Assembly (NCBI GenBank): GCA_001793895.1
Contig: MGIT01000001.1
Span: 106,508-170,507 of the forward strand
Length of the DNA stretch: 64,000 bases
Reading direction: 5' to 3'
DNA from: Candidatus Wolfebacteria bacterium RIFOXYB1_FULL_54_12
Lineage (GTDB): Bacteria; Patescibacteriota; Minisyncoccia; UBA6257; UBA9933
A program made the translations under genes and the position numbers. Shown here one piece after another: positions 15,471 through 55,064 of this stretch. Below the pieces are notes generated by a model, which was not told the DNA's origin, did no database searches, and worked only from the letters and a program-made list of their open reading frames with translations. Numbering within the stretch: the first letter of the stretch is position 1; every line of letters starts with the position of its first letter.

Positions 15471-15654
15471 TGTCATTCCCGCGGAGGCGGGAATCTATTT
15501 AATACTGGATTCCCGCCTCCGCAGGGATGATACCGTCTCTAATTAATACATTACTCAGCGCATTGTCATTCCGGCCTAAGCCTGTCCGCCAACTGGAGGA
15601 AGCCGGAATCTTGTTGAAAGAACTCGAGATCCCGTGTCGAGGCACGGGATGACA
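15471..15654. repeat. Cluster of about four GTCAT-hairpin units
   Basis: The units are tgtcattcccgcggaggcgggaatc, ggattcccgcctccgcagggatga, tgtcattccggcctaagcc...ggaagccggaatc and gagatcccgtgtcgaggcacgggatgaca. Confidence 0.9.
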
Positions 15655-15749
15655 TCGGAGAGCGACACAGGAAGCAATCGGAATGAATTTATTAGGGATG
15701 GCATGGCAGCTACAAAAAATCGCCGAATATCATTCGACGATTTTTATCG

Positions 15750-16073
15750 TTAGGAAATTTTACCAATTTCTACTTCGGTATAATCCTGCCTATGCGTCTT
15801 GAACTTTCGATAGCGGTTCTTGTTGTGGTAGCGGAAGACGATCTTTTTGTCGTCCCGATCCTTGCTCAACACGGTCGCTTCGACTTTCGCATTGGCCACA
15901 TACGGAGCTCCGATGGTCGCATCGGCGCCATCTTTCTGCTCGTCGGCGACAAGCAAAACCTTATCAAAAACGAACTGCTCGCCAATGGCGGCCTCCAGTT
16001 TTTCTACTCTTAGCTTTTGTCCGGCGGAAACCTTGTACTGCTTTCCACCCGTTTCGATGACTGCAAATTTCAT
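15750..16073 (-). CDS. rplU: 50S ribosomal protein L21
   Basis: The N-terminus is MKFAVIETGGKQYKVSAGQKLRVEKL. Confidence 0.93.
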   Translation of the reverse strand: MKFAVIETGGKQYKVSAGQKLRVEKLEAAIGEQFVFDKVLLVADEQKDGADATIGAPYVANAKVEATVLSKDRDDKKIVFRYHNKNRYRKFKTHRQDYTEVEIGKIS

Positions 16074-16116
16074 ATCACTTAAAGATACCTGAAGACCCTT
16101 AAAATGTCAACAGAAT

Positions 16117-16189
16117 TGTCATTCCCGCGAAGGCGGGAATCCACTACGTTCATATAGATCCCTCCGCCAGTCGGCGGACGGGAATGACA
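16117..16189. repeat. Composite GTCAT-hairpin repeat
   Basis: tgtcattcccgcgaaggcgggaatccac...gatccctccgccagtcggcggacgggaatgaca. Confidence 0.9.
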
Positions 16190-16321
16190 GAAATAACCTG
16201 CACCCTATCCGAAAAATTGGAAAAATGCCGTCCACGCCAAGTACTTCCGCAAGCTTCGGGACACCCTCCGTTGATGTTCAATGATTTTATTTCTACCAAG
16301 GTCAAATCGGAAACAGCCTAT

Positions 16322-16897
16322 TCATAAGATGAATTTTAAGATGCTGTCACGCACGATCGGAAGTTCATAAATGCCGGCAGCTTCGCTAAAATGCCCCATG
16401 TCATGCATAACCGTAACGAAACCGCCCAAACGATCCTCAAATAACCGCTTGTTTTCATCAAGTGCAACATATGGGTCATTGTCGGAAAGGATAACGCACA
16501 ACGGACGGCATCGCTCACGCACAAAGGCAAGATTAATCGCGGTATCCAACCACGGCCTTGCGATATCCTCCTCTTCGGCGTTTTCCAGACCTTGCAACGA
16601 AAACCAGCCGGCAACAAAAATGACCGGCACAGATACGCCGTCCCCGTACAATTCCAAATAGCGCAAAATAGTCTGACACCCGATACTATGGCCAACTAAA
16701 ATATCCGTAGACCGTAACTCACCGATCTCCGTATGGAGCGCGCCGACCCACTCATCGATTGTTGGACGCATCGTATCGGGCATCGCAGGAATATGCACCG
16801 CAAGGCCATACGGCTCAAGCTGGTCCGCGAGCCATGGAAACCATTCTCGATCCGGAGCTGCGCTCCACCCATGTACGATAAATATGCGCTGTTTCAT
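16322..16897 (-). CDS. Alpha/beta serine hydrolase (YdeN/RBBP9-like)
   Basis: It contains IFIVHGW and the nucleophile elbow VGHSIGC. The ATG at 16897 gives 191 aa. Confidence 0.75.
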   Translation of the reverse strand: MKQRIFIVHGWSAAPDREWFPWLADQLEPYGLAVHIPAMPDTMRPTIDEWVGALHTEIGELRSTDILVGHSIGCQTILRYLELYGDGVSVPVIFVAGWFSLQGLENAEEEDIARPWLDTAINLAFVRERCRPLCVILSDNDPYVALDENKRLFEDRLGGFVTVMHDMGHFSEAAGIYELPIVRDSILKFIL

Positions 16898-16899
16898 GA

Positions 16900-17235
16900 T
16901 TAGAAATATAAATAATACACCACCGATCCGATGGCCAATAATGCAATGCATACCAAAACAGATAGGGCAATGATCACGCGTTCCTTTTTTGCATCTTCAG
17001 GCTTCAATTGCGCCTCTTGGGCAATGTCATTGAACACCTCATCGGCCTTTTTAAGAACATCCTCGCCGGAAACCTGGGCAGGTTTCGCATCGCCCGTCGC
17101 AAGCACCGCCTGCATGATAGCATCCACATCGGCCGGCTCGACGCCCCGATACACGAGCAGTTCACGAACCTGGTCCTGTCCGATGCCCCCCTTCAGCTGG
17201 TCTTTTGCGATTGTGATGAGTTTTTGTTTATCCAT
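16900..17235 (-). CDS. Hypothetical protein with a C-terminal TM anchor
   Basis: Its N-terminal about 45 aa (K.QL.GG...VRE.L..RG) are paralogous to the start of the next gene. Confidence 0.6.
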   Translation of the reverse strand: MDKQKLITIAKDQLKGGIGQDQVRELLVYRGVEPADVDAIMQAVLATGDAKPAQVSGEDVLKKADEVFNDIAQEAQLKPEDAKKERVIIALSVLVCIALLAIGSVVYYLYF

Positions 17236-17286
17236 GGCTAAAATCTATTTTTCTATCGTTTTATTATTATGCAAACTTCGCTTATT

Positions 17287-17356
17287 TGTCATTCCGGCCT
17301 CCGAGCCGGAATCTTACCGTTTAACCGCGAGATCCTGAATCAAGTTCAGGATGACA
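17287..17356. repeat. Composite GTCAT-hairpin repeat
   Basis: tgtcattccggcctccgagccggaatc...gagatcctgaatcaagttcaggatgaca. Confidence 0.9.
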
Positions 17357-29026: not shown

Positions 29027-29088
29027 TGTCATTCCCGCGGAGGCGGGAATCTATTTAATACTGGATTCCCGCCTCCGCGGGAATGACA
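29027..29088. repeat. Archetypal 62-bp composite GTCAT-hairpin element
   Basis: The sequence is tgtcattcccgcggaggcgggaatctatttaatactggattcccgcctccgcgggaatgaca. It consists of two inverted units around a tatttaatactgg core. Confidence 0.95.
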
Positions 29089-45326: not shown

Positions 45327-45496
45327 TGTCATTCCGAGCCTGCTGTCATCCTGAACTCGTTTCAGGATCTCGCGTACAAACAGTGAGCTTCTGAAATAAA
45401 TTCAGAATGACACTTTAAAAAATATTGTCATTCCCGTCCGCCCACCAGCAGAGGAATCCAGTACCCCGCATTGTCATTCCCGCGAAAGCGGGAATC
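45327..45496. repeat. Cluster of about five GTCAT-hairpin units
   Basis: tgtcattccgagcc; tgtcatcctgaactcgtttcaggatc; ttctgaaataaattcagaatgaca; tgtcattcccgtccgcccaccagcagaggaatcc; tgtcattcccgcgaaagcgggaatc. Confidence 0.9.
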
Positions 45497-47796: not shown

Positions 47797-47904
47797 TGTC
47801 ATTCCGGCGGAGGCCGGAATGACAACATAAGAAGTTTGTCATCCTGAACTCGTTTCAGGATCTCATGGTAGTGCGATGAGATTCCGGCCTCCGCCGGAAT
47901 GACA
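47797..47904. repeat. Three GTCAT-hairpin units
   Basis: tgtcattccggcggaggccggaatgaca; tgtcatcctgaactcgtttcaggatc; gagattccggcctccgccggaatgaca. Confidence 0.95.
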
Positions 47905-48016
47905 AATGCGCGGTTCTATTAATAGAACCGCGCATTCACCACCCTCCCACAAAAACAAAGAATCCGCTCGTCCATCAAATGGCGGACGAACAGATCCGGT
48001 AGAATTTCGCATCCCT

Positions 48017-49490: not shown

Positions 49491-51494
49491 TTAAGTTATA
49501 TCCAAGTTGCGCACCAATGTTGCATTTGACTGGATGAACTGCTTGCGTGGCGCGACTTCGTCGCCCATCAATATCTCAAACAATCGATCGGCTTCCTGAG
49601 CGTCATCGATCTCAACCTGAAGCAACGTACGGAACTCCGGATTCATAGTCGTTTCCCAAAGCTGGTCGGGGTTCATTTCACCAAGACCCTTATAGCGCTG
49701 CACATTTACGTTCGACTCGCTCTTTTTACCGGCGGTCATTTCCGAAACGGCCTTGTCTTTTTGCTCGGGCGTGTACACATAGCGCACATCCTTACCAAGC
49801 TGGAGGCGGAACAATGGCGGCTGTGCAATGTACAAGAAACCTCCATCGATCACCGGGCGGAAGAAACGATAGAACAAGGTCAATAACAATGTTCGAATGT
49901 GCGCTCCATCAGTATCGGCGTCGGTCATGATGACAACTTTATGGTACCGCAACTTCTCGATATCAAAGCTATCGGAAATGGCAGTGCCGAGCGCAATGAC
50001 CAATGACTTGATTTCGTTATTGACAAGCATCTTGTCGAGCCGCGCGCGCTCGACGTTCAAGATCTTTCCCTTAAGCGGAAGAATGGCCTGGAACCGGCGA
50101 TCACGACCCTGCTTGGCCGAGCCTCCGGCAGAATCGCCTTCGACTATGTACAGCTCGGAATCAGCAGCTTTGCGACTGGAACAATCGGCAAGCTTCCCCG
50201 GCAGAGTCATACCCTCGAGCATGCCTTTGCGCAACACGGTATCCTTTGCGGCTTTTGCGGCCTTACGGGCCTTTTGGGCCAAGATACATTTTTCGATGAT
50301 CGCTTTGCCATCACCCGAATATTTTTCAAAGTATTCCTTTAGCGCTTCAGAGAGCACGGACTCCACTGCTCCGCGCGCTGCCGGCGTTCCTAAGCGGGCC
50401 TTGGTCTGCCCCTCGAATTGCGGATCGCGCAGCTTCACGGAGATGATCGCCGTAATACCCTCGCGCACATCATCGCCGGTCAAGTTATCTTCCGTTCCTT
50501 TTAATGCATTTATGTTGCGCGCGAATTCATTCAACGCGCGCGTCAGGGCCGTGCGAAAACCGGTCACATGCATACCGCCATCCGATGTATAGATATTGTT
50601 TGCAAAACTCAACTCACGAGCATCAGGGTCGTCGTTATAAATAAATGCCGCCTCAACATCAATACTCTCGTAACTTTTATGCGCATAGAAAGTCTCCTTG
50701 TGCACTGGGGTATGATTGCGATTTACATAACGGACGAACGAAATAAGTCCCCCTTCAAAATAGAAGGAGTAATAGAATGGAAGATCCTCTCGATCATCAA
50801 CGATCTCGATGCGGATCCCTTTGGTCAAAAACGCCTGTTGGCGCAAATGGCTTACGATTTCTTTGCGGTCGAATTCGAGCGTGGAGAAAATGGACCCGTC
50901 CGGCTTAAATAAGACCTTTGTTCCGTTGGCCGTGCACTTACCCGCTTTCTTTACATCGTATTGCGGTTTGCCGATCTTATATTCCTGCACATACATCGTG
51001 CCTTCTTTGCACACTTCGATCTTCATCCATGTCGAAAGTGCGTTTACGACCGAAAGGCCCACGCCGTGCAGACCGCCGGAAACCTTGTACGAATCGCCGT
51101 CAAACTTACCGCCGGCATGTAATGTAGTAGCCGCGGTTTCGAGTGCGGATTTTTTTGTCTTCGGGTGAATGTCTACGGGGATACCGCGCCCATCGTCGGC
51201 AACCGTAACCGTGCCGTCTTTCAACAGCTCTACCTTAATGCTCTTGGCATACCCAGCCATGGCTTCATCGAGCGAGTTGTCAAACACCTCCCAGATCAAA
51301 TGATGCAATCCCTGTTCGCCGGTCGAACCGATATACATACCGGGGCGCTTGCGCACCGGCTCCAATCCTTCGAGTACCTGAATATCCTTCGCGCTATACG
51401 AAGCATTCCCCCTGTTGTCGGTCGGTTCGTCCAACTTTTTGGCAGCCGCTTTCCGAGGCTTTTCTTCTTCTATGTTTTCTGCTTTTTTCGCCAT
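49491..51494 (-). CDS. gyrB: DNA gyrase subunit B
   Basis: It contains GLHHLIWEVFDNSLDE, GGLHGVG, the Toprim motif EGDSAGGSA and IMTDADTDGAHI. Confidence 0.95.
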   Translation of the reverse strand: MAKKAENIEEEKPRKAAAKKLDEPTDNRGNASYSAKDIQVLEGLEPVRKRPGMYIGSTGEQGLHHLIWEVFDNSLDEAMAGYAKSIKVELLKDGTVTVADDGRGIPVDIHPKTKKSALETAATTLHAGGKFDGDSYKVSGGLHGVGLSVVNALSTWMKIEVCKEGTMYVQEYKIGKPQYDVKKAGKCTANGTKVLFKPDGSIFSTLEFDRKEIVSHLRQQAFLTKGIRIEIVDDREDLPFYYSFYFEGGLISFVRYVNRNHTPVHKETFYAHKSYESIDVEAAFIYNDDPDARELSFANNIYTSDGGMHVTGFRTALTRALNEFARNINALKGTEDNLTGDDVREGITAIISVKLRDPQFEGQTKARLGTPAARGAVESVLSEALKEYFEKYSGDGKAIIEKCILAQKARKAAKAAKDTVLRKGMLEGMTLPGKLADCSSRKAADSELYIVEGDSAGGSAKQGRDRRFQAILPLKGKILNVERARLDKMLVNNEIKSLVIALGTAISDSFDIEKLRYHKVVIMTDADTDGAHIRTLLLTLFYRFFRPVIDGGFLYIAQPPLFRLQLGKDVRYVYTPEQKDKAVSEMTAGKKSESNVNVQRYKGLGEMNPDQLWETTMNPEFRTLLQVEIDDAQEADRLFEILMGDEVAPRKQFIQSNATLVRNLDIT

Positions 51495-51714: not shown

Positions 51715-52323
51715 CTATTCCAATGCCAACGGGATGCAGGAAGGGACGTCTATTTCACAACCCTCCCGATCCAAACAGATCGTGGTCCAATTGACCTCCG
51801 GCGAATATGATTTTCCAATGATCAAGCAACCCGTCGCCAGCACATTGCCCTCAGTCAGCTCATTCGGAAACTTGGACCGTTTATTACTTCGCAGGGCAAT
51901 CGGAAGTCGAGGAGCCAACTCCACCCAGCCGGTTTTATCAAGACGGATAAGAACCGAGCTATTAAACCCCCTGCGCGGAGCTTCAACGACGATCTCACCA
52001 CTACCTGTTAAAATATCTCCCGGCATAAGCGCCCGCGGCTGGGAAATTGTCGGCGTGCGCAACATGCTTGAACCGTTGCTCTTTTGCCTCTCGTAATATT
52101 CGCGAAGATCGTATGAACGCTCGTGGATCTCGTCGGGCCAACCGGGAGTTTCCAGCTCGGCCAGTCTTCCCGCTCTCATAAGGATCATTGTATTGCTTTT
52201 GCTATCAGCAAAAACGATCCCGACATGATCGCAGGCCTTGTTAGTCCGGATGACGCAATGCTTTCCTTTGTGCTCGCCCGAAATAATACGAAATACCTTA
52301 CTGTCCGGCCTAATGATAGACAT
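51715..52323 (-). CDS. Hypothetical protein (202 aa)
   Basis: The ATG at 52323 is preceded by gaggagg. No family was recognised. Confidence 0.55.
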   Translation of the reverse strand: MSIIRPDSKVFRIISGEHKGKHCVIRTNKACDHVGIVFADSKSNTMILMRAGRLAELETPGWPDEIHERSYDLREYYERQKSNGSSMLRTPTISQPRALMPGDILTGSGEIVVEAPRRGFNSSVLIRLDKTGWVELAPRLPIALRSNKRSKFPNELTEGNVLATGCLIIGKSYSPEVNWTTICLDREGCEIDVPSCIPLALE

Positions 52324-52426
52324 GCCCACACCCTCCTCTTTCTATGGATATATATGTAAAATAAGAGCTAACTCAAACTAACACCTGCGTTGCGCACTGT
52401 CAAACGATATTTAAAAAAATATTTTG

Positions 52427-52497
52427 AGCGGGTAAAGGGAATCGAACCCTCGCTTCAACCTTGGGAAGGTTGCGCACTACCACTATGCAATACCCGC
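52427..52497 (-). tRNA. tRNA-Gly (CCC)
   Basis: Reverse complement: GCGGGTATTGCATAGTGGTAGTGCGCAACCTTCCCAAGGTTGAAGCGAGGGTTCGATTCCCTTTACCCGCT. The anticodon arm is CAACC-TTCCCAA-GGTTG. Confidence 0.88.
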
Positions 52498-52748: not shown

Positions 52749-53289
52749 CCCCGGCGGAGCTCGCCACGTGGAAAGTAGAAACTTTCTTTACGTGGGCCGG
52801 AGGAGTCCAGCGTTTTCCGCGATAGCGGTAGCTGGACATTCAGACCCTAACAATGCCGGGAATGACGATGCGAGATTGGGTGTCATCCCCGTCCGTCCGC
52901 CAGCCGGCGGACGGAGGGATCCATGGTTTTTGCAGTAGTAGGGCTGGGATACCCAGACTCTGGATTCCCGTTTTCACGGGAATGACAATACCGAGGTGAC
53001 AAAGCAAGAAAATACTCATACAAAAAGGTTGTGACCCCGGCGGAGCTCGCCACGTGGTCCGCCAATGGCGGATCGGAATGACACCATCCACGCATTGTCA
53101 TGTCGACGCCTACCCGCCTTGGTCGGGAAGGCCGGTATCCGGTGTCTTGCATTGTCATTCCGAGAGTAGCGGAGCGGAGCCAAGGAATCTGTTTTTAGTA
53201 CGGATCCCTGCTCCACCTCCGCCAGCTGGCGGATATGGCGGCACGCGGTCGATTTAATTCCGCTTCGCTATATTGCACTCGGGATGACA
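52749..53289. repeat. About 540-bp non-coding tract built from degenerate GTCAT-hairpin units plus a 23-bp duplicate
   Basis: Units include ccgggaatgac, tgtcatccccgtccgtccgccagccggcggacggagggatcc, ctggattcccgttttcacgggaatgaca, ggatcggaatgaca, tgtcatgtcgacgcc, tgtcattccgagagtagcggagcggagccaaggaatc and ctcgggatgaca. The 23-mer ccccggcggagctcgccacgtgg occurs at 52749 and at 53035. Confidence 0.85.
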
Positions 53290-53397
53290 GAAAGAACTGC
53301 TATCGAATTAGTAAACAATTTGCCGTGTTTATTACCACCGCTTGAATTCGTTTGGTATGCGCGTTAGCTAAGCAATAATTGACTACAGCCAATAAGT

Positions 53398-53470
53398 GTT
53401 CTATACTTGTTCTATATTAGAATAAATACATTGAATACTGCTCACGTTTTATTGTTCTATCTACGTTCTA
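53398..53470 (+). promoter_or_regulatory. Candidate operator: two pairs of GTTCTA direct repeats with 11-bp phasing
   Basis: GTTCTA occurs at 53398, 53409, 53454 and 53465. The TTCTA-TAT-TAGAA palindrome lies at 53410-53422. The start codon is at 53477. Confidence 0.5.
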
Positions 53471-53476
53471 ACATAT

Positions 53477-53938
53477 ATGTCCATAACAAAAACACAAAAA
53501 CAAATATTGGATATCTTTGAAAAAAATGGCGGGGCACTTCCTTCGTTTCGCGAAATAGCCCGTCAGATTGGAGTGTCGTCGACAAACACTGTCTCCTATC
53601 ATATAGAGCGCCTGCGAAAGAATGGCTACCTCGATATCGGACACTCCCCCCAAGGGATGGCAAACCTGTCACTTAAAACGATTCTTGCCTTGGATGCGAA
53701 GCCGGGAGTCTACGTGGTTCTCTGCGCGAACAAACCATTTTATATTGGGTCGTCCACGAACATCCGAAAGGACATTCTTGAAACGGTCATTGGCATAGAC
53801 CGGTCCCCGTTTCCACAGATCGTCGGCAAGCCGGAAGAACTGTCCATTGCCTACCACATCATCGAAAGCGAACCCGAACGGGCCGACCTCAAACAATACC
53901 TGCTCGAATTTTACCAAGCCAAGGGCATCGACATATGA
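53477..53938 (+). CDS. LexA-type winged-HTH domain fused to a GIY-YIG-like module
   Basis: N-terminus: TKTQKQILDIFEKNGGALPSFREIARQIGVSSTNTVSYHIERLRKNGYL. C-terminus: PGVYVVLCANKPFYIGSSTNIRKD. The GVY and YIG motifs are separated by 8 residues and followed by Arg. No S24 peptidase domain is present. Confidence 0.7.
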   Translation: MSITKTQKQILDIFEKNGGALPSFREIARQIGVSSTNTVSYHIERLRKNGYLDIGHSPQGMANLSLKTILALDAKPGVYVVLCANKPFYIGSSTNIRKDILETVIGIDRSPFPQIVGKPEELSIAYHIIESEPERADLKQYLLEFYQAKGIDI

Positions 53939-53943
53939 ACAAT

Positions 53944-53974
53944 AAAACGGTCCGCCAACATGGCGGACCGTTTT
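53944..53974. terminator. Bidirectional terminator between the wHTH gene and mraY
   Basis: The structure is cggtccgcca-aca-tggcggaccg with A and T runs on both sides. Confidence 0.8.
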
Positions 53975-53984
53975 ATTGTTTTTA

Positions 53985-55064
53985 TTAATACAGGAACTTG
54001 CTCAAGAAATACAGAATCAGACCAAGCCCGGAGAAAATCGATGACAACAACCAGAAGCGCATCGTGATCTGGCTCTCGCTCCACCCCAACGCTTCGAAGT
54101 GATGGTGGATCGGAGCGGCGAGAAACACTTTTTTCCCGTGACGCAACTTTTTTGAGGTCAGCTGTATGATGACCGACAACGATTCGATAACGAGCACAAT
54201 GCCGATGATCGGAAGCAGTACGACCGAGTTGGTCAGGAACGCGATCACGGCAAGCACCGCCGTAAGCCCAAGGATGCCCGTCTCGCCCATATAAAACTTT
54301 GCGGGCGGTACATTGTACCACAGGTAGGTCAACATCGCCCCGACAATGATCACGATCAAGGTAACCAGGTCATACAATCCGCGCGAATATGCAATGACGC
54401 CAAAGGATATGAAGATGGGGGTCAACACGCCCGCCGACAATCCATCAAGTCCATCCACGACGCCGCTCGAAAACGTGGCGAGCATCGTCAACACGAACAG
54501 CACCATGTACAATCCGTCGATCTCGATATTGCCATGAAACGGAATGTAAATGCTGCTCCAGCCGAGCTTGAAATGAAACCACCACGCGCCCACGAATGCG
54601 ATCAGACAAACGATGGCCAATCGCCACTTAAAACGAAGGCCTCCGCTGATATAGTTTCCGCTGTTGCGTACCGTCATAATATCGTCGACCAACCCAAGTA
54701 GCGAGGCGGCGATCAACGTGAACAACGGAAGCCATGTCTGCGAACGGCTTAGAAAATTGACTTGTTCGGAAAGCGGGTATGGAAGCACCTGCACCAAAAT
54801 AAGATCGAGTATGGCGATCGCCAATACGGTTCCCCATATCAAAATGCCACCCATGCGCGGCGTGGTAACTTCTTTCTTTGCATGAAACTTCTGAAATATC
54901 GGCGTGGCATAACCGCCGATGGATAATTCCTTTGGCTTCTTTTTCCACGCCTTGTATTTATAAAGAAAATGGATCAGTACCGGGGCAAACAAAATGGCGA
55001 CAAGAAATGATGCCATAAAAAAACTGAGGAACTTTACGATAAGGAATGCGTGTGTCAGATACAT
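53985..55064 (-). CDS. mraY: Phospho-N-acetylmuramoyl-pentapeptide transferase MraY
   Basis: It has ten or so TM helices, GLVDD, and PIHHHFE in the C-terminal region. Confidence 0.92.
   Translation of the reverse strand: MYLTHAFLIVKFLSFFMASFLVAILFAPVLIHFLYKYKAWKKKPKELSIGGYATPIFQKFHAKKEVTTPRMGGILIWGTVLAIAILDLILVQVLPYPLSEQVNFLSRSQTWLPLFTLIAASLLGLVDDIMTVRNSGNYISGGLRFKWRLAIVCLIAFVGAWWFHFKLGWSSIYIPFHGNIEIDGLYMVLFVLTMLATFSSGVVDGLDGLSAGVLTPIFISFGVIAYSRGLYDLVTLIVIIVGAMLTYLWYNVPPAKFYMGETGILGLTAVLAVIAFLTNSVVLLPIIGIVLVIESLSVIIQLTSKKLRHGKKVFLAAPIHHHFEALGWSESQITMRFWLLSSIFSGLGLILYFLSKFLY

What the first reader, a model, noticed from the sequence alone, without database searches (positions are those of the whole stretch)
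53398..53938. A LexA-type wHTH fused to a GIY-YIG-like module, behind phased GTTCTA operator repeats
The first about 60 aa of this 153-aa protein look like the LexA/ArsR-type winged-helix DNA-binding domain (QKQILDIF...PSFREIARQIGVSSTNTVSYHIERLRKNGYL). In place of the S24 autopeptidase, the C-terminus carries PGVYVVLCANKPFYIGSSTNIRKD. That is the GIY / 8 intervening residues / YIG / Arg arrangement of GIY-YIG nucleases. Upstream, GTTCTA occurs four times in two pairs, at 53398/53409 and 53454/53465. The spacing within each pair is 11 bp, one helical turn. A TTCTA-TAT-TAGAA palindrome is also present, and the last repeat ends 7 nt before the ATG. This suggests an autoregulated DNA-binding nuclease or nuclease-derived regulator. 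It abuts the largest repeat tract in the window, so a link to repeat biology is possible but purely speculative.
Basis: partly seen in the sequence, partly recalled or inferred. Interest (0 to 1): 0.7.

Follow-up and report, generated by a model that had tools for sequence, protein, structure and literature searches.

The report
Self-repressing regulator with dead nuclease domain
This is a small gene regulator from a Wolfebacteria (candidate phyla radiation) genome that joins a LexA-like DNA-binding head to a UvrC-like GIY-YIG nuclease domain that has lost its catalytic residues, and it almost certainly switches off its own promoter through conserved GTTCTA direct repeats; the combination has not been described, as far as I could find, but its wider role is unknown.

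Summary
The 153-aa ORF at 53477-53938 (+) exists. Four GTTCTA hexamers lie at the stated coordinates as two GTTCTA-N5-GTTCTA pairs; no such pair occurred in any of 100 shuffles. Residues 3-54 pass Pfam's LexA_DNA_bind threshold. Residues 66-153 model confidently as a GIY-YIG fold. Structure searches and a family sequence profile (E=3e-5) both point to the UvrC N-terminal nuclease domain.

The interpretation needs one correction. Only the first Tyr is kept. The catalytic Arg position is Asp99 and is never Arg in 33 relatives. The metal-binding Glu is Lys139, and the Asn has no counterpart. The domain is therefore a pseudo-nuclease.

An exact tandem GTTCTA repeat lies upstream of 15 of 16 distinct orthologous loci, down to 37-42% identity and in unrelated gene neighbourhoods. 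It wraps the -10 hexamer, so autorepression is strongly inferred. The motif equals the alphaproteobacterial LexA box, GTTC-N7-GTTC.

The family is small and found only in Patescibacteria, and the C-domain occurs only in this fusion. The neighbouring hairpin tract belongs to a repeat family dispersed through the window, so the adjacency is not specific. The inducing signal and the regulon remain unknown.

The parts
53379..53407 (+). Sigma-70-type promoter: TTGACT (53379-53384), 17-nt spacer, TATACT (53402-53407)
   Evidence: The consensus scan gives 10 of 12 matches. The same TTGAC(T/C)-17-TATA(C/A)T arrangement is present in orthologs L002 and L014.
53398..53414 (+). Operator pair 1: GTTCTA-TACTT-GTTCTA, half-sites 11 bp apart, enclosing the -10 hexamer
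   Evidence: The pair is conserved at the same place in orthologs.
53454..53470 (+). Operator pair 2: GTTCTA-TCTAC-GTTCTA, starting 56 bp after pair 1 and ending 6 nt before the ATG
   Evidence: The 56-bp distance between pairs is identical in five Wolfebacteria lineages: window, L014, L053, L002 and L007.
53410..53422 (.). TTCTA-TAT-TAGAA palindrome overlapping the second half-site of pair 1; probably incidental
   Evidence: It is present in the window. Only the closest relative L014 keeps it, as TTCTATAGTAGAA; L002, L007 and more distant loci do not.
53477..53938 (+). Coding sequence of the 153-aa regulator, with no Shine-Dalgarno sequence upstream
   Evidence: Seventeen full-length homologs of 150-160 aa were found.
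53483..53638 (+). LexA-type winged helix-turn-helix domain (residues 3-54); the recognition helix region GVSSTNTVSYH is almost invariant
   Evidence: Pfam PF01726 gives E=2.8e-10, above its cut-off. All 19 family members hit it first. Invariant columns are listed.
53672..53935 (+). Degenerate UvrC-like GIY-YIG domain (residues 66-153), topology beta-beta-alpha-(alpha)-beta-alpha. Positions corresponding to UvrC catalytic residues: Tyr79 (kept), Tyr89, Ser92, Asp99, Lys139.
53937..53981 (.). Hairpin with a 20-bp stem followed by a T-run: a terminator between this gene and the convergent mraY (53985-55064, minus strand)
   Evidence: The gene is therefore monocistronic.

Best explanation
The gene encodes a stand-alone, autoregulated transcriptional repressor. 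Its LexA-type winged helix reads the hexamer GTTCTA. Two copies of the protein sit head-to-tail on two hexamers 11 bp apart, on the same face of the DNA. This site encloses the -10 element, so a bound repressor blocks RNA polymerase at its own promoter. In Wolfebacteria a second identical site 56 bp downstream, next to the start codon, adds a second block or allows cooperative binding. The C-terminal half descends from a UvrC-type GIY-YIG nuclease domain but has lost the Arg, Glu and Asn needed for cleavage. It most likely takes the role that the S24 domain plays in LexA: it holds subunits together and sets their geometry, here for direct rather than inverted repeats. The domain identities, the loss of catalytic residues, the conservation of the operator and its overlap with the promoter are shown by computation. 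Repression itself, oligomerisation through the C-domain and the absence of nuclease activity are inferred.
For: Domains. Dead active site: the Arg39 position is D, H, S, Y or F and never R. The Glu76 position is K in 27 of 33 relatives and E in only 3, and nothing aligns with Asn88. An independent alignment to genuine small GIY-YIG proteins also places the catalytic Arg at Asp99. Across the wide family only structural residues are conserved in the C-domain: G77, V78, Y79, P87, I124, A125, L142 and Y146. That pattern argues for a scaffold or interface rather than a catalytic or ligand pocket. Operator: exact GTTCTA-N5/6-GTTCTA lies upstream of 15 of 16 distinct loci, always on the coding strand, including loci with a completely different gene neighbourhood. 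All 40 half-sites in the 20 N5-spaced sites are identical, which matches the near-invariant recognition helix. The spacer is the -10 hexamer itself, as in GTTC-TATAAT-TGTTCTA with a -35 element 17-18 nt upstream. In L004, L020, L023 and L024 the last half-site runs into the ATG, which suggests leaderless transcripts. The tandem motif occurs nowhere else in the window or in about 346 kb of family loci. The C-domain is found only fused to this winged helix. LexA proteins that read direct repeats GTTC-N7-GTTC are documented in Alphaproteobacteria (PMC4951493, PMC8565304).
Against: There is no experimental binding or expression data. No oligomer model could be made, and many GIY-YIG domains work as monomers. 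No second target was found, so a purely self-regulating gene would have no obvious purpose; the real regulon must lie outside the DNA available here. One family member, L030, lacks the repeat pair upstream. The structure is a prediction from a shallow alignment of 18-21 sequences. The Pfam GIY-YIG match is below threshold (17.6-19 bits against 22.6) and covers only the first 25 profile positions.
Confidence: 0.6

Rival explanations
1. The dead GIY-YIG domain is a sensor, not only a glue. It still binds damaged, single-stranded or branched DNA, or a repair partner, as its UvrC ancestor did. That binding pulls the repressor off its operators. The result would be a DNA-damage response that needs no RecA-stimulated self-cleavage.
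For: The nearest relative of the domain is the UvrC incision domain, both by fold and by sequence. The DNA-binding head and the operator GTTC-N7-GTTC are LexA-like (PMC4951493). Basic residues cluster where the active site used to be: R/K97, K98, R135 and K139. In Wolfebacteria the gene lies in a conserved block with gyrB, scpB and a 3-methyladenine glycosylase gene.
Against: None of those basic residues is conserved across the wider family. No repair gene in the window or the loci carries the operator. The neighbourhood is not conserved outside Wolfebacteria. Canonical LexA with an S24 domain is common in Patescibacteria, so a substitute is not obviously needed.
Confidence: 0.2
2. The protein controls or counteracts the small mobile GIY-YIG gene cassettes and hairpin repeats that litter these genomes. 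It might do so by binding their nucleases through its look-alike domain, or by competing for their DNA targets.
For: Genuine 87-96 aa GIY-YIG genes, each bounded by 13-26 nt inverted repeats, lie next to the regulator in three lineages. In L009 one lies 12 nt downstream. In L002 one lies about 280 nt upstream. In L029 two are inserted between the operator and the start codon, with short duplicated target sequences. The window gene abuts a hairpin tract.
Against: The regulator's C-domain resembles UvrC over its whole length (E=3e-5). It matches the cassette proteins only weakly and only over 30 columns (hhalign probability 69%). The window contains no cassette-type GIY-YIG ORF at all. The hairpin family is spread over about ten intergenic clusters in the window, so adjacency is expected by chance. 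Thirteen of 16 lineages show no cassette nearby in the DNA available.
Confidence: 0.1
3. It is an active, site-directed GIY-YIG nuclease that also represses its own gene. This would resemble the phage homing endonuclease I-TevI, but with the domain order reversed.
For: It has a GIY-YIG fold, a retained first Tyr and a sequence-specific DNA-binding domain. That I-TevI represses its own promoter is stated from my own knowledge of the literature and was not re-read here.
Against: The single metal ligand Glu is Lys, the catalytic Arg is Asp or His, and Asn is missing. This holds for the window protein and nearly all relatives. The gene is a conserved, syntenic chromosomal gene and not an intron or intein passenger. 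Its exact binding sites persist uncut in every genome.
Confidence: 0.05
4. The C-terminal half is not GIY-YIG at all. It would instead be an Lrp/AsnC-type (RAM) small-molecule binding domain, making this an ordinary feast/famine regulator.
Against: With the C-domain alone, the top nine Foldseek hits are all UvrC GIY-YIG and no Lrp/AsnC protein appears. The C-domain profile hits UvrC by sequence at E=3e-5 over positions 2-84. The predicted topology, beta-beta-alpha-alpha-beta-alpha, is not the RAM beta-alpha-beta-beta-alpha-beta. The Lrp/AsnC hits are explained by the shared winged helix.
Confidence: 0.03

Closest known systems
LexA repressor, especially alphaproteobacterial LexA, which binds the direct repeat GTTC-N7-GTTC
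   Same: The N-terminal winged helix is of the LexA_DNA_bind type. The gene carries its own operator in its promoter. The operator is GTTC-N7-GTTC in direct repeat, the motif reported for Alphaproteobacteria (PMC4951493, PMC8565304). The half-site GTTC is also that of the Firmicutes and Actinobacteria box GAAC-N4-GTTC (PMC4951493).
   Different: It has no S24 autopeptidase domain, no Ala-Gly cleavage site and no Ser/Lys dyad. NCBIfam lexA scores 34 bits against a cut-off of 110.95. RecA-triggered self-cleavage is therefore impossible. The operator half-site is longer (GTTCTA). No SOS-type regulon was found.
UvrC / Cho N-terminal GIY-YIG incision domain (T. maritima UvrC, PDB 1ycz)
   Different: Lys32, Arg39, Glu76 and Asn88 of UvrC are replaced or missing. 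There is no UvrB-binding domain, no Endo V-like domain and no helix-hairpin-helix domain. The domain is fused to a transcription-factor head.
I-TevI and related GIY-YIG homing endonucleases
   Same: They are two-domain proteins that join a GIY-YIG module to a sequence-specific DNA-binding module. I-TevI also represses its own promoter (stated from my own knowledge, not re-read here).
   Different: The domain order is reversed. The DNA-binding module is of a different kind. The catalytic residues are lost. The gene is a conserved chromosomal gene rather than an intron passenger.
Lrp/AsnC (feast/famine) regulators
   Same: They are about 150 aa, with an N-terminal winged helix, a short linker and a small alpha/beta C-domain that mediates oligomerisation. 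They are often autoregulated.
   Different: The C-domain fold is GIY-YIG and not RAM.
N-terminal domain of the plant glutaredoxin GrxS16 (PDB 2lwf)
   Different: It is eukaryotic and fused to a glutaredoxin rather than to a DNA-binding domain. No detectable sequence relationship was found here.

Membership tests
LexA (SOS repressor) | N-terminal LexA-type winged helix-turn-helix DNA-binding domain | tested here: met
   PF01726 scores 40.3 bits against a cut-off of 23.7, E=2.8e-10, over residues 3-54. It is the top family for 19 of 19 members.
LexA (SOS repressor) | C-terminal S24 serine autopeptidase domain with a Ser/Lys dyad and a cleavable linker | tested here: not met
   No Peptidase_S24 hit appears at E up to 10. 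NCBIfam lexA equivalog scores 34 bits against 110.95 and covers only residues 3-55. The C-terminal half folds as GIY-YIG.
LexA (SOS repressor) | Operator in its own promoter (autoregulation) | tested here: met
   The test is comparative only. Exact tandem GTTCTA lies upstream of 15 of 16 loci and overlaps the -10 hexamer. Binding was not measured.
LexA (SOS repressor) | Controls recA and DNA-repair or translesion-synthesis genes; inactivated by RecA bound to single-stranded DNA | not testable with these tools
   Only 64 kb plus short loci were available, and no second site was found. Whole-genome scans and experiments are needed.
GIY-YIG nuclease superfamily | Three-stranded sheet flanked by helices (beta-beta-alpha-beta-alpha core) | tested here: met
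GIY-YIG nuclease superfamily | Sequence match to the family model | tested here: inconclusive
   Pfam PF01541 scores 17.6-19 bits, below the 22.6 cut-off, over the first 25 positions only. Eight of 18 members match at E up to 1. The family profile nevertheless matches the UvrC GIY-YIG domain at E=3e-5 over its full length.
GIY-YIG nuclease superfamily | GIY Tyr (UvrC Tyr19) and YIG Tyr (UvrC Tyr29) | tested here: inconclusive
   The first Tyr (Y79) is kept in 28 of 33 relatives, with F or C in the rest. The second (Y89) is Y here but H, F, T, L or R in many relatives.
GIY-YIG nuclease superfamily | Catalytic Arg (UvrC Arg39, 8 residues after the G of YIG) | tested here: not met
   The position is Asp99 here and D, H, S, Y or F in 33 of 33 relatives. 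An independent alignment to genuine small GIY-YIG proteins gives the same register.
GIY-YIG nuclease superfamily | Metal-binding Glu (UvrC Glu76) and Asn (UvrC Asn88) | tested here: not met
   The Glu position is Lys139; it is K in 27 of 33 relatives and E in 3. The protein ends before any counterpart of Asn88.
Lrp/AsnC regulators | C-terminal RAM domain (beta-alpha-beta-beta-alpha-beta) | tested here: not met
   The predicted topology is beta-beta-alpha-alpha-beta-alpha. The fold search with the C-domain alone returns no Lrp/AsnC protein.

The most novel reading that the evidence does not exclude
This family is a second, cleavage-independent kind of LexA-like switch in the candidate phyla radiation. 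A repressor head that reads the LexA-type box GTTC-N7-GTTC is coupled to an inactivated UvrC incision domain. That domain would detect DNA lesions or repair intermediates directly, so that damage titrates the repressor off its operators without RecA or autoproteolysis.
Probability: 0.12. Interest if true: 0.8.

Novelty: new variant of a known kind. Interest (0 to 1): 0.5.

Why it matters
Bacterial one-component regulators usually pair a DNA-binding head with a ligand-binding or protease domain. Here the partner is a nuclease domain taken from nucleotide excision repair and then disarmed. That makes it a clear case of a pseudo-enzyme recruited into transcription control. It occurs in Patescibacteria, whose tiny genomes have few regulators and almost no experimentally studied ones.

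The operator is unusually well defined. It has invariant hexamers, fixed 11-bp phasing and an embedded -10 element, which makes it an easy system for EMSA or reporter tests. The regulon could also be read directly from complete genomes.

If the dead UvrC domain proves to sense DNA damage, this would be a new design for a damage response. If it is only a dimerisation module, it shows that the LexA head can switch from inverted to direct repeats by exchanging its partner domain.

Tried and rejected
1. A single-sequence search of solved structures gave only weak winged-helix hits.

2. PADLOC and PHROGs returned only generic winged-helix matches and nothing for the C-domain.

3. The afdb50 fold library was not available, so I could not check AlphaFold-database proteins for the same architecture.

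4. I searched for further operator copies. There are none with up to one mismatch outside the gene's own promoter in the window or in about 346 kb of family loci. The exceptions are the site that heads the cassette insertion in L029 and two one-mismatch hits in L007 and L009 that look like chance.

5. I searched for cassette-type GIY-YIG ORFs in the window and found none.

6. I tried to learn whether Wolfebacteria also have a canonical LexA. The search showed that wHTH+S24 LexA is common in Patescibacteria, but none of the 120 listed hits was named Wolfebacteria, so the question stays open.

7. The paper on the patescibacterial SOS network (Sanchez-Osuna et al. 2017, PubMed 28618189) is not held. 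I know only, from PMC7739468, that it is cited as a case of LexA reading a direct-repeat motif.

8. The inverted GTTCTA...TAGAAC at 47913-47928 is part of a 32-bp perfect hairpin and not an operator of this type.

9. The TTCTA-TAT-TAGAA palindrome was rejected as a functional element because it is not conserved.

Full report
**What is in the sequence**

GTTCTA occurs 22 times in the 64-kb window. Four copies lie within 73 bp, all on the coding strand, at 53398, 53409, 53454 and 53465. They form two copies of GTTCTA-N5-GTTCTA, a pattern that never appeared in 100 dinucleotide-preserving shuffles. Even the relaxed pattern GTTC-N7-GTTC matches only these two places in the window.

A sigma-70-type promoter, TTGACT-17-TATACT at 53379-53407, is predicted. 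Its -10 hexamer lies between the two half-sites of the first pair. A 20-bp-stem terminator hairpin follows the stop codon and separates the gene from the convergent mraY. Two small counting slips and the register of the Arg are noted under the observation check.

**Origin and context**

The closest relatives are Candidatus Wolfebacteria genomes (91% identity to RIFOXYD12_FULL_48_21). P0008 is annotated 'LexA repressor' in a Wolfebacteria MAG. Within Wolfebacteria the neighbourhood is conserved. It runs secE-nusG-rplK, gyrB, a long non-coding stretch, this gene, then mraY, an S11 peptidase, scpB, a 3-methyladenine glycosylase and a Na/H exchanger. More distant relatives (37-49% identity) lie in quite different neighbourhoods. 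The gene is always a single unit, with no conserved operon partner.

**The protein**

Residues 3-54 match Pfam LexA_DNA_bind above threshold (40.3 against 23.7 bits). This is the best family for all 19 members tested. Generic winged-helix families score lower, and solved Lrp/AsnC proteins are comparably weak sequence hits. No S24 peptidase is present.

A separate model of residues 66-153 alone (pLDDT 88.8) returns UvrC GIY-YIG domains as its nine best Foldseek hits (probability 1.0, TM about 0.64). No Lrp/AsnC protein appears. Independently of structure, an HMM of the C-domain family hits the UvrC N-terminal domain by sequence at E=3e-5. The match covers positions 2-84 against UvrC 7-86, including the helix that precedes GIY. 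The Pfam GIY-YIG model itself is matched only below threshold and only over its first third.

**Catalytic residues**

I aligned 33 distinct family members and UvrC to the family HMM.

| UvrC residue | Window protein | Family (33 relatives) |
|---|---|---|
| Tyr19 | Tyr79 | kept in 28; F or C in the rest |
| Tyr29 | Tyr89 | variable: Y, H, F, T, L or R |
| Lys32 | Ser92 | mostly S or E |
| Arg39 | Asp99 | D, H, S, Y or F; never Arg |
| Glu76 (sole metal ligand) | Lys139 | K in 27; E in 3 |
| Asn88 | none | the protein ends first |

A profile-profile alignment with genuine small GIY-YIG proteins places the catalytic Arg at the same Asp99. Across the wide family only hydrophobic or structural positions are conserved in this domain: G77, V78, Y79, P87, I124, A125, L142 and Y146. 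The domain is therefore a nuclease-derived module without the catalytic apparatus.

**Distribution**

A search of 1.84 billion representative proteins found only six clusters below E=1e-10. The 5.8-billion-protein search found 17 close relatives, all 150-160 aa. A search with the C-domain profile found only proteins of this same architecture. The two apparent exceptions are short sequences on contigs of 833 and 1370 bp. All named sources are Patescibacteria.

**The operator in relatives**

I collected 16 distinct loci from genomes and metagenomes. Fifteen have at least one exact GTTCTA-N5/6-GTTCTA upstream, always on the coding strand. The only exception is L030. In the 20 N5-spaced sites, all 40 half-sites are identical, with the extended consensus YGTTCTAW. 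This matches the nearly invariant recognition-helix region GVSSTNTVSYH.

Five Wolfebacteria lineages have two pairs exactly 56 bp apart. In most loci the spacer between half-sites is the -10 hexamer itself, as in GTTC-TATAAT-TGTTCTA with a -35-like hexamer 17-18 nt upstream. In L004, L020, L023 and L024 the second half-site runs directly into the ATG (GTTCT-ATG), which suggests leaderless transcripts that start at the ATG.

The motif does not recur elsewhere in the window or in about 346 kb of family loci. This is strong comparative evidence that the protein binds these repeats and represses its own promoter by occluding RNA polymerase. Binding itself was not measured.

**Comparison with known systems**

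The motif GTTC-N7-GTTC in direct repeat is the published LexA box of the Alphaproteobacteria. GTTC is also the half-site of the Firmicutes and Actinobacteria box (PMC4951493, PMC8565304). LexA has repeatedly evolved direct-repeat recognition, and the Patescibacteria study is cited as one such case (PMC7739468); I could not read that paper.

The protein thus works like a LexA-type autorepressor at the DNA level. It is not a LexA, because the defining autopeptidase domain is absent. It belongs structurally to the GIY-YIG superfamily but fails the catalytic-residue tests. I found no paper that describes a fusion of a LexA DNA-binding domain with a GIY-YIG domain.

**Most likely mechanism**

Two subunits bind head-to-tail on hexamers one helical turn apart. 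They are held by the C-terminal pseudo-nuclease domain, which replaces the S24 dimerisation domain of LexA. Occupancy of the -10 region shuts off transcription. In Wolfebacteria the site next to the start codon adds a second block.

The identity of the domains, the loss of catalytic residues, and the conservation and promoter overlap of the operator are shown by computation. The oligomerisation role and the lack of nuclease activity are inferred. The inducing signal and the regulon are unknown.

The main rival is that the UvrC-derived domain still recognises damaged or structured DNA and makes the protein a damage sensor. It is attractive but has no direct support: no conserved basic patch was found, and no repair gene with the operator occurs in the DNA available.

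**The neighbouring repeats**

The 9-mer TGTCATTCC, which marks the hairpin repeats, occurs 24 times in the window against 0.64 expected, in about ten intergenic clusters. The tract upstream of this gene is one of many. The stretch 52768-53249 cannot be aligned with the otherwise 87-92% identical relative L014, whereas everything from 53249 onward can. The repeats are thus a fast-changing, dispersed element family, and their adjacency to this gene is not specific. The window holds no cassette-type GIY-YIG ORF.

There is one curiosity. In three other lineages, small genuine GIY-YIG genes (87-96 aa) bounded by 13-26 nt inverted repeats lie beside this gene. In L029 two of them are inserted between the operator and the start codon, with short duplicated target sequences. 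These proteins are only weakly similar to the regulator's C-domain. A functional link remains speculative.

**Verdict**

This is a real and well-supported feature: a small, Patescibacteria-restricted family of autoregulated LexA-head repressors. Their partner domain is a disarmed UvrC-type GIY-YIG nuclease domain. It is a new variant of a known kind of regulator and is of moderate interest. Interest would be higher if the dead nuclease domain proves to be a damage sensor.

Noticed in passing
window 620-53161 (24 sites; clusters near 620, 1451-1693, 2381-2456, 15471-17295, 29027-29088, 30853, 45327-45480, 47797-47904, 51539, 52979-53161): A dispersed family of intergenic GC-rich hairpins is marked by TGTCATTCC / GGAATGACA, for example TGTCATTCCGGCGGAGGCCGGAATGACA at 47797-47824. 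There are 24 exact 9-mers against 0.64 expected by chance. Similar hairpins occur in other Wolfebacteria loci, such as L002 5739-5851.
   Followed up: partly
window 52768-53249 against L014 9304-9766: The hairpin tract just upstream of the regulator's promoter cannot be aligned with the closest relative, although the flanks are 87-92% identical. It is a hypervariable spot between tRNA-Gly and the regulator gene.
   Followed up: partly
L029 2316-2918; L009 5432-5752; L002 5425-5748: Small genuine GIY-YIG genes (87-96 aa) are each bracketed by inverted repeats of 13-26 nt whose sequence differs from case to case. In L029 two such cassettes sit between the GTTCTATAATTGTTCTA operator and the regulator's ATG, with short duplicated flanks (TTCTA, TATG). 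This looks like insertion of mobile elements into a leaderless promoter. The L002 copy has an in-frame TAA at codon 3.
   Followed up: partly
L014 4644-7943 (minus strand), against window gyrB 49491-51494: GyrB of the closest relative is 1099 aa because of an insertion of about 430 aa at the EGDSAGG/SAKQGR motif. The insertion begins with Cys and ends with His-Asn before Ser, which is an intein signature. The window's gyrB (667 aa) lacks it.
   Followed up: partly
window 52426-52497 (minus strand): A tRNA-Gly (CCC) gene lies between gyrB and the regulator. The mechanical ORFs that overlap it are spurious. It is 100% identical in L016, on the opposite strand relative to the flanking genes.
   Followed up: no
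window 47905-47936: A perfect 32-bp palindrome, AATGCGCGGTTCTATTAATAGAACCGCGCATT, follows a hairpin cluster. It contains GTTCTA and its complement in inverted orientation. It is probably a hairpin or terminator and not an operator of the direct-repeat type.
   Followed up: partly
window 51715-52329 (minus strand): A 204-aa ORF of unknown function lies between gyrB and tRNA-Gly. The DNA is conserved in L014 (about 87% identity), but the protein was not searched.
   Followed up: no
L034 1319-1957; L038 1003-1647; L040 2385-2969: Canonical LexA proteins (winged helix plus S24 peptidase, 194-214 aa) have heads 30-33% identical to this family. Relatives named Pacebacteria, Gracilibacteria, Uhrbacteria and Parcubacteria show that ordinary LexA is common in Patescibacteria. 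Their promoters show no GTTCTA repeats.
   Followed up: partly
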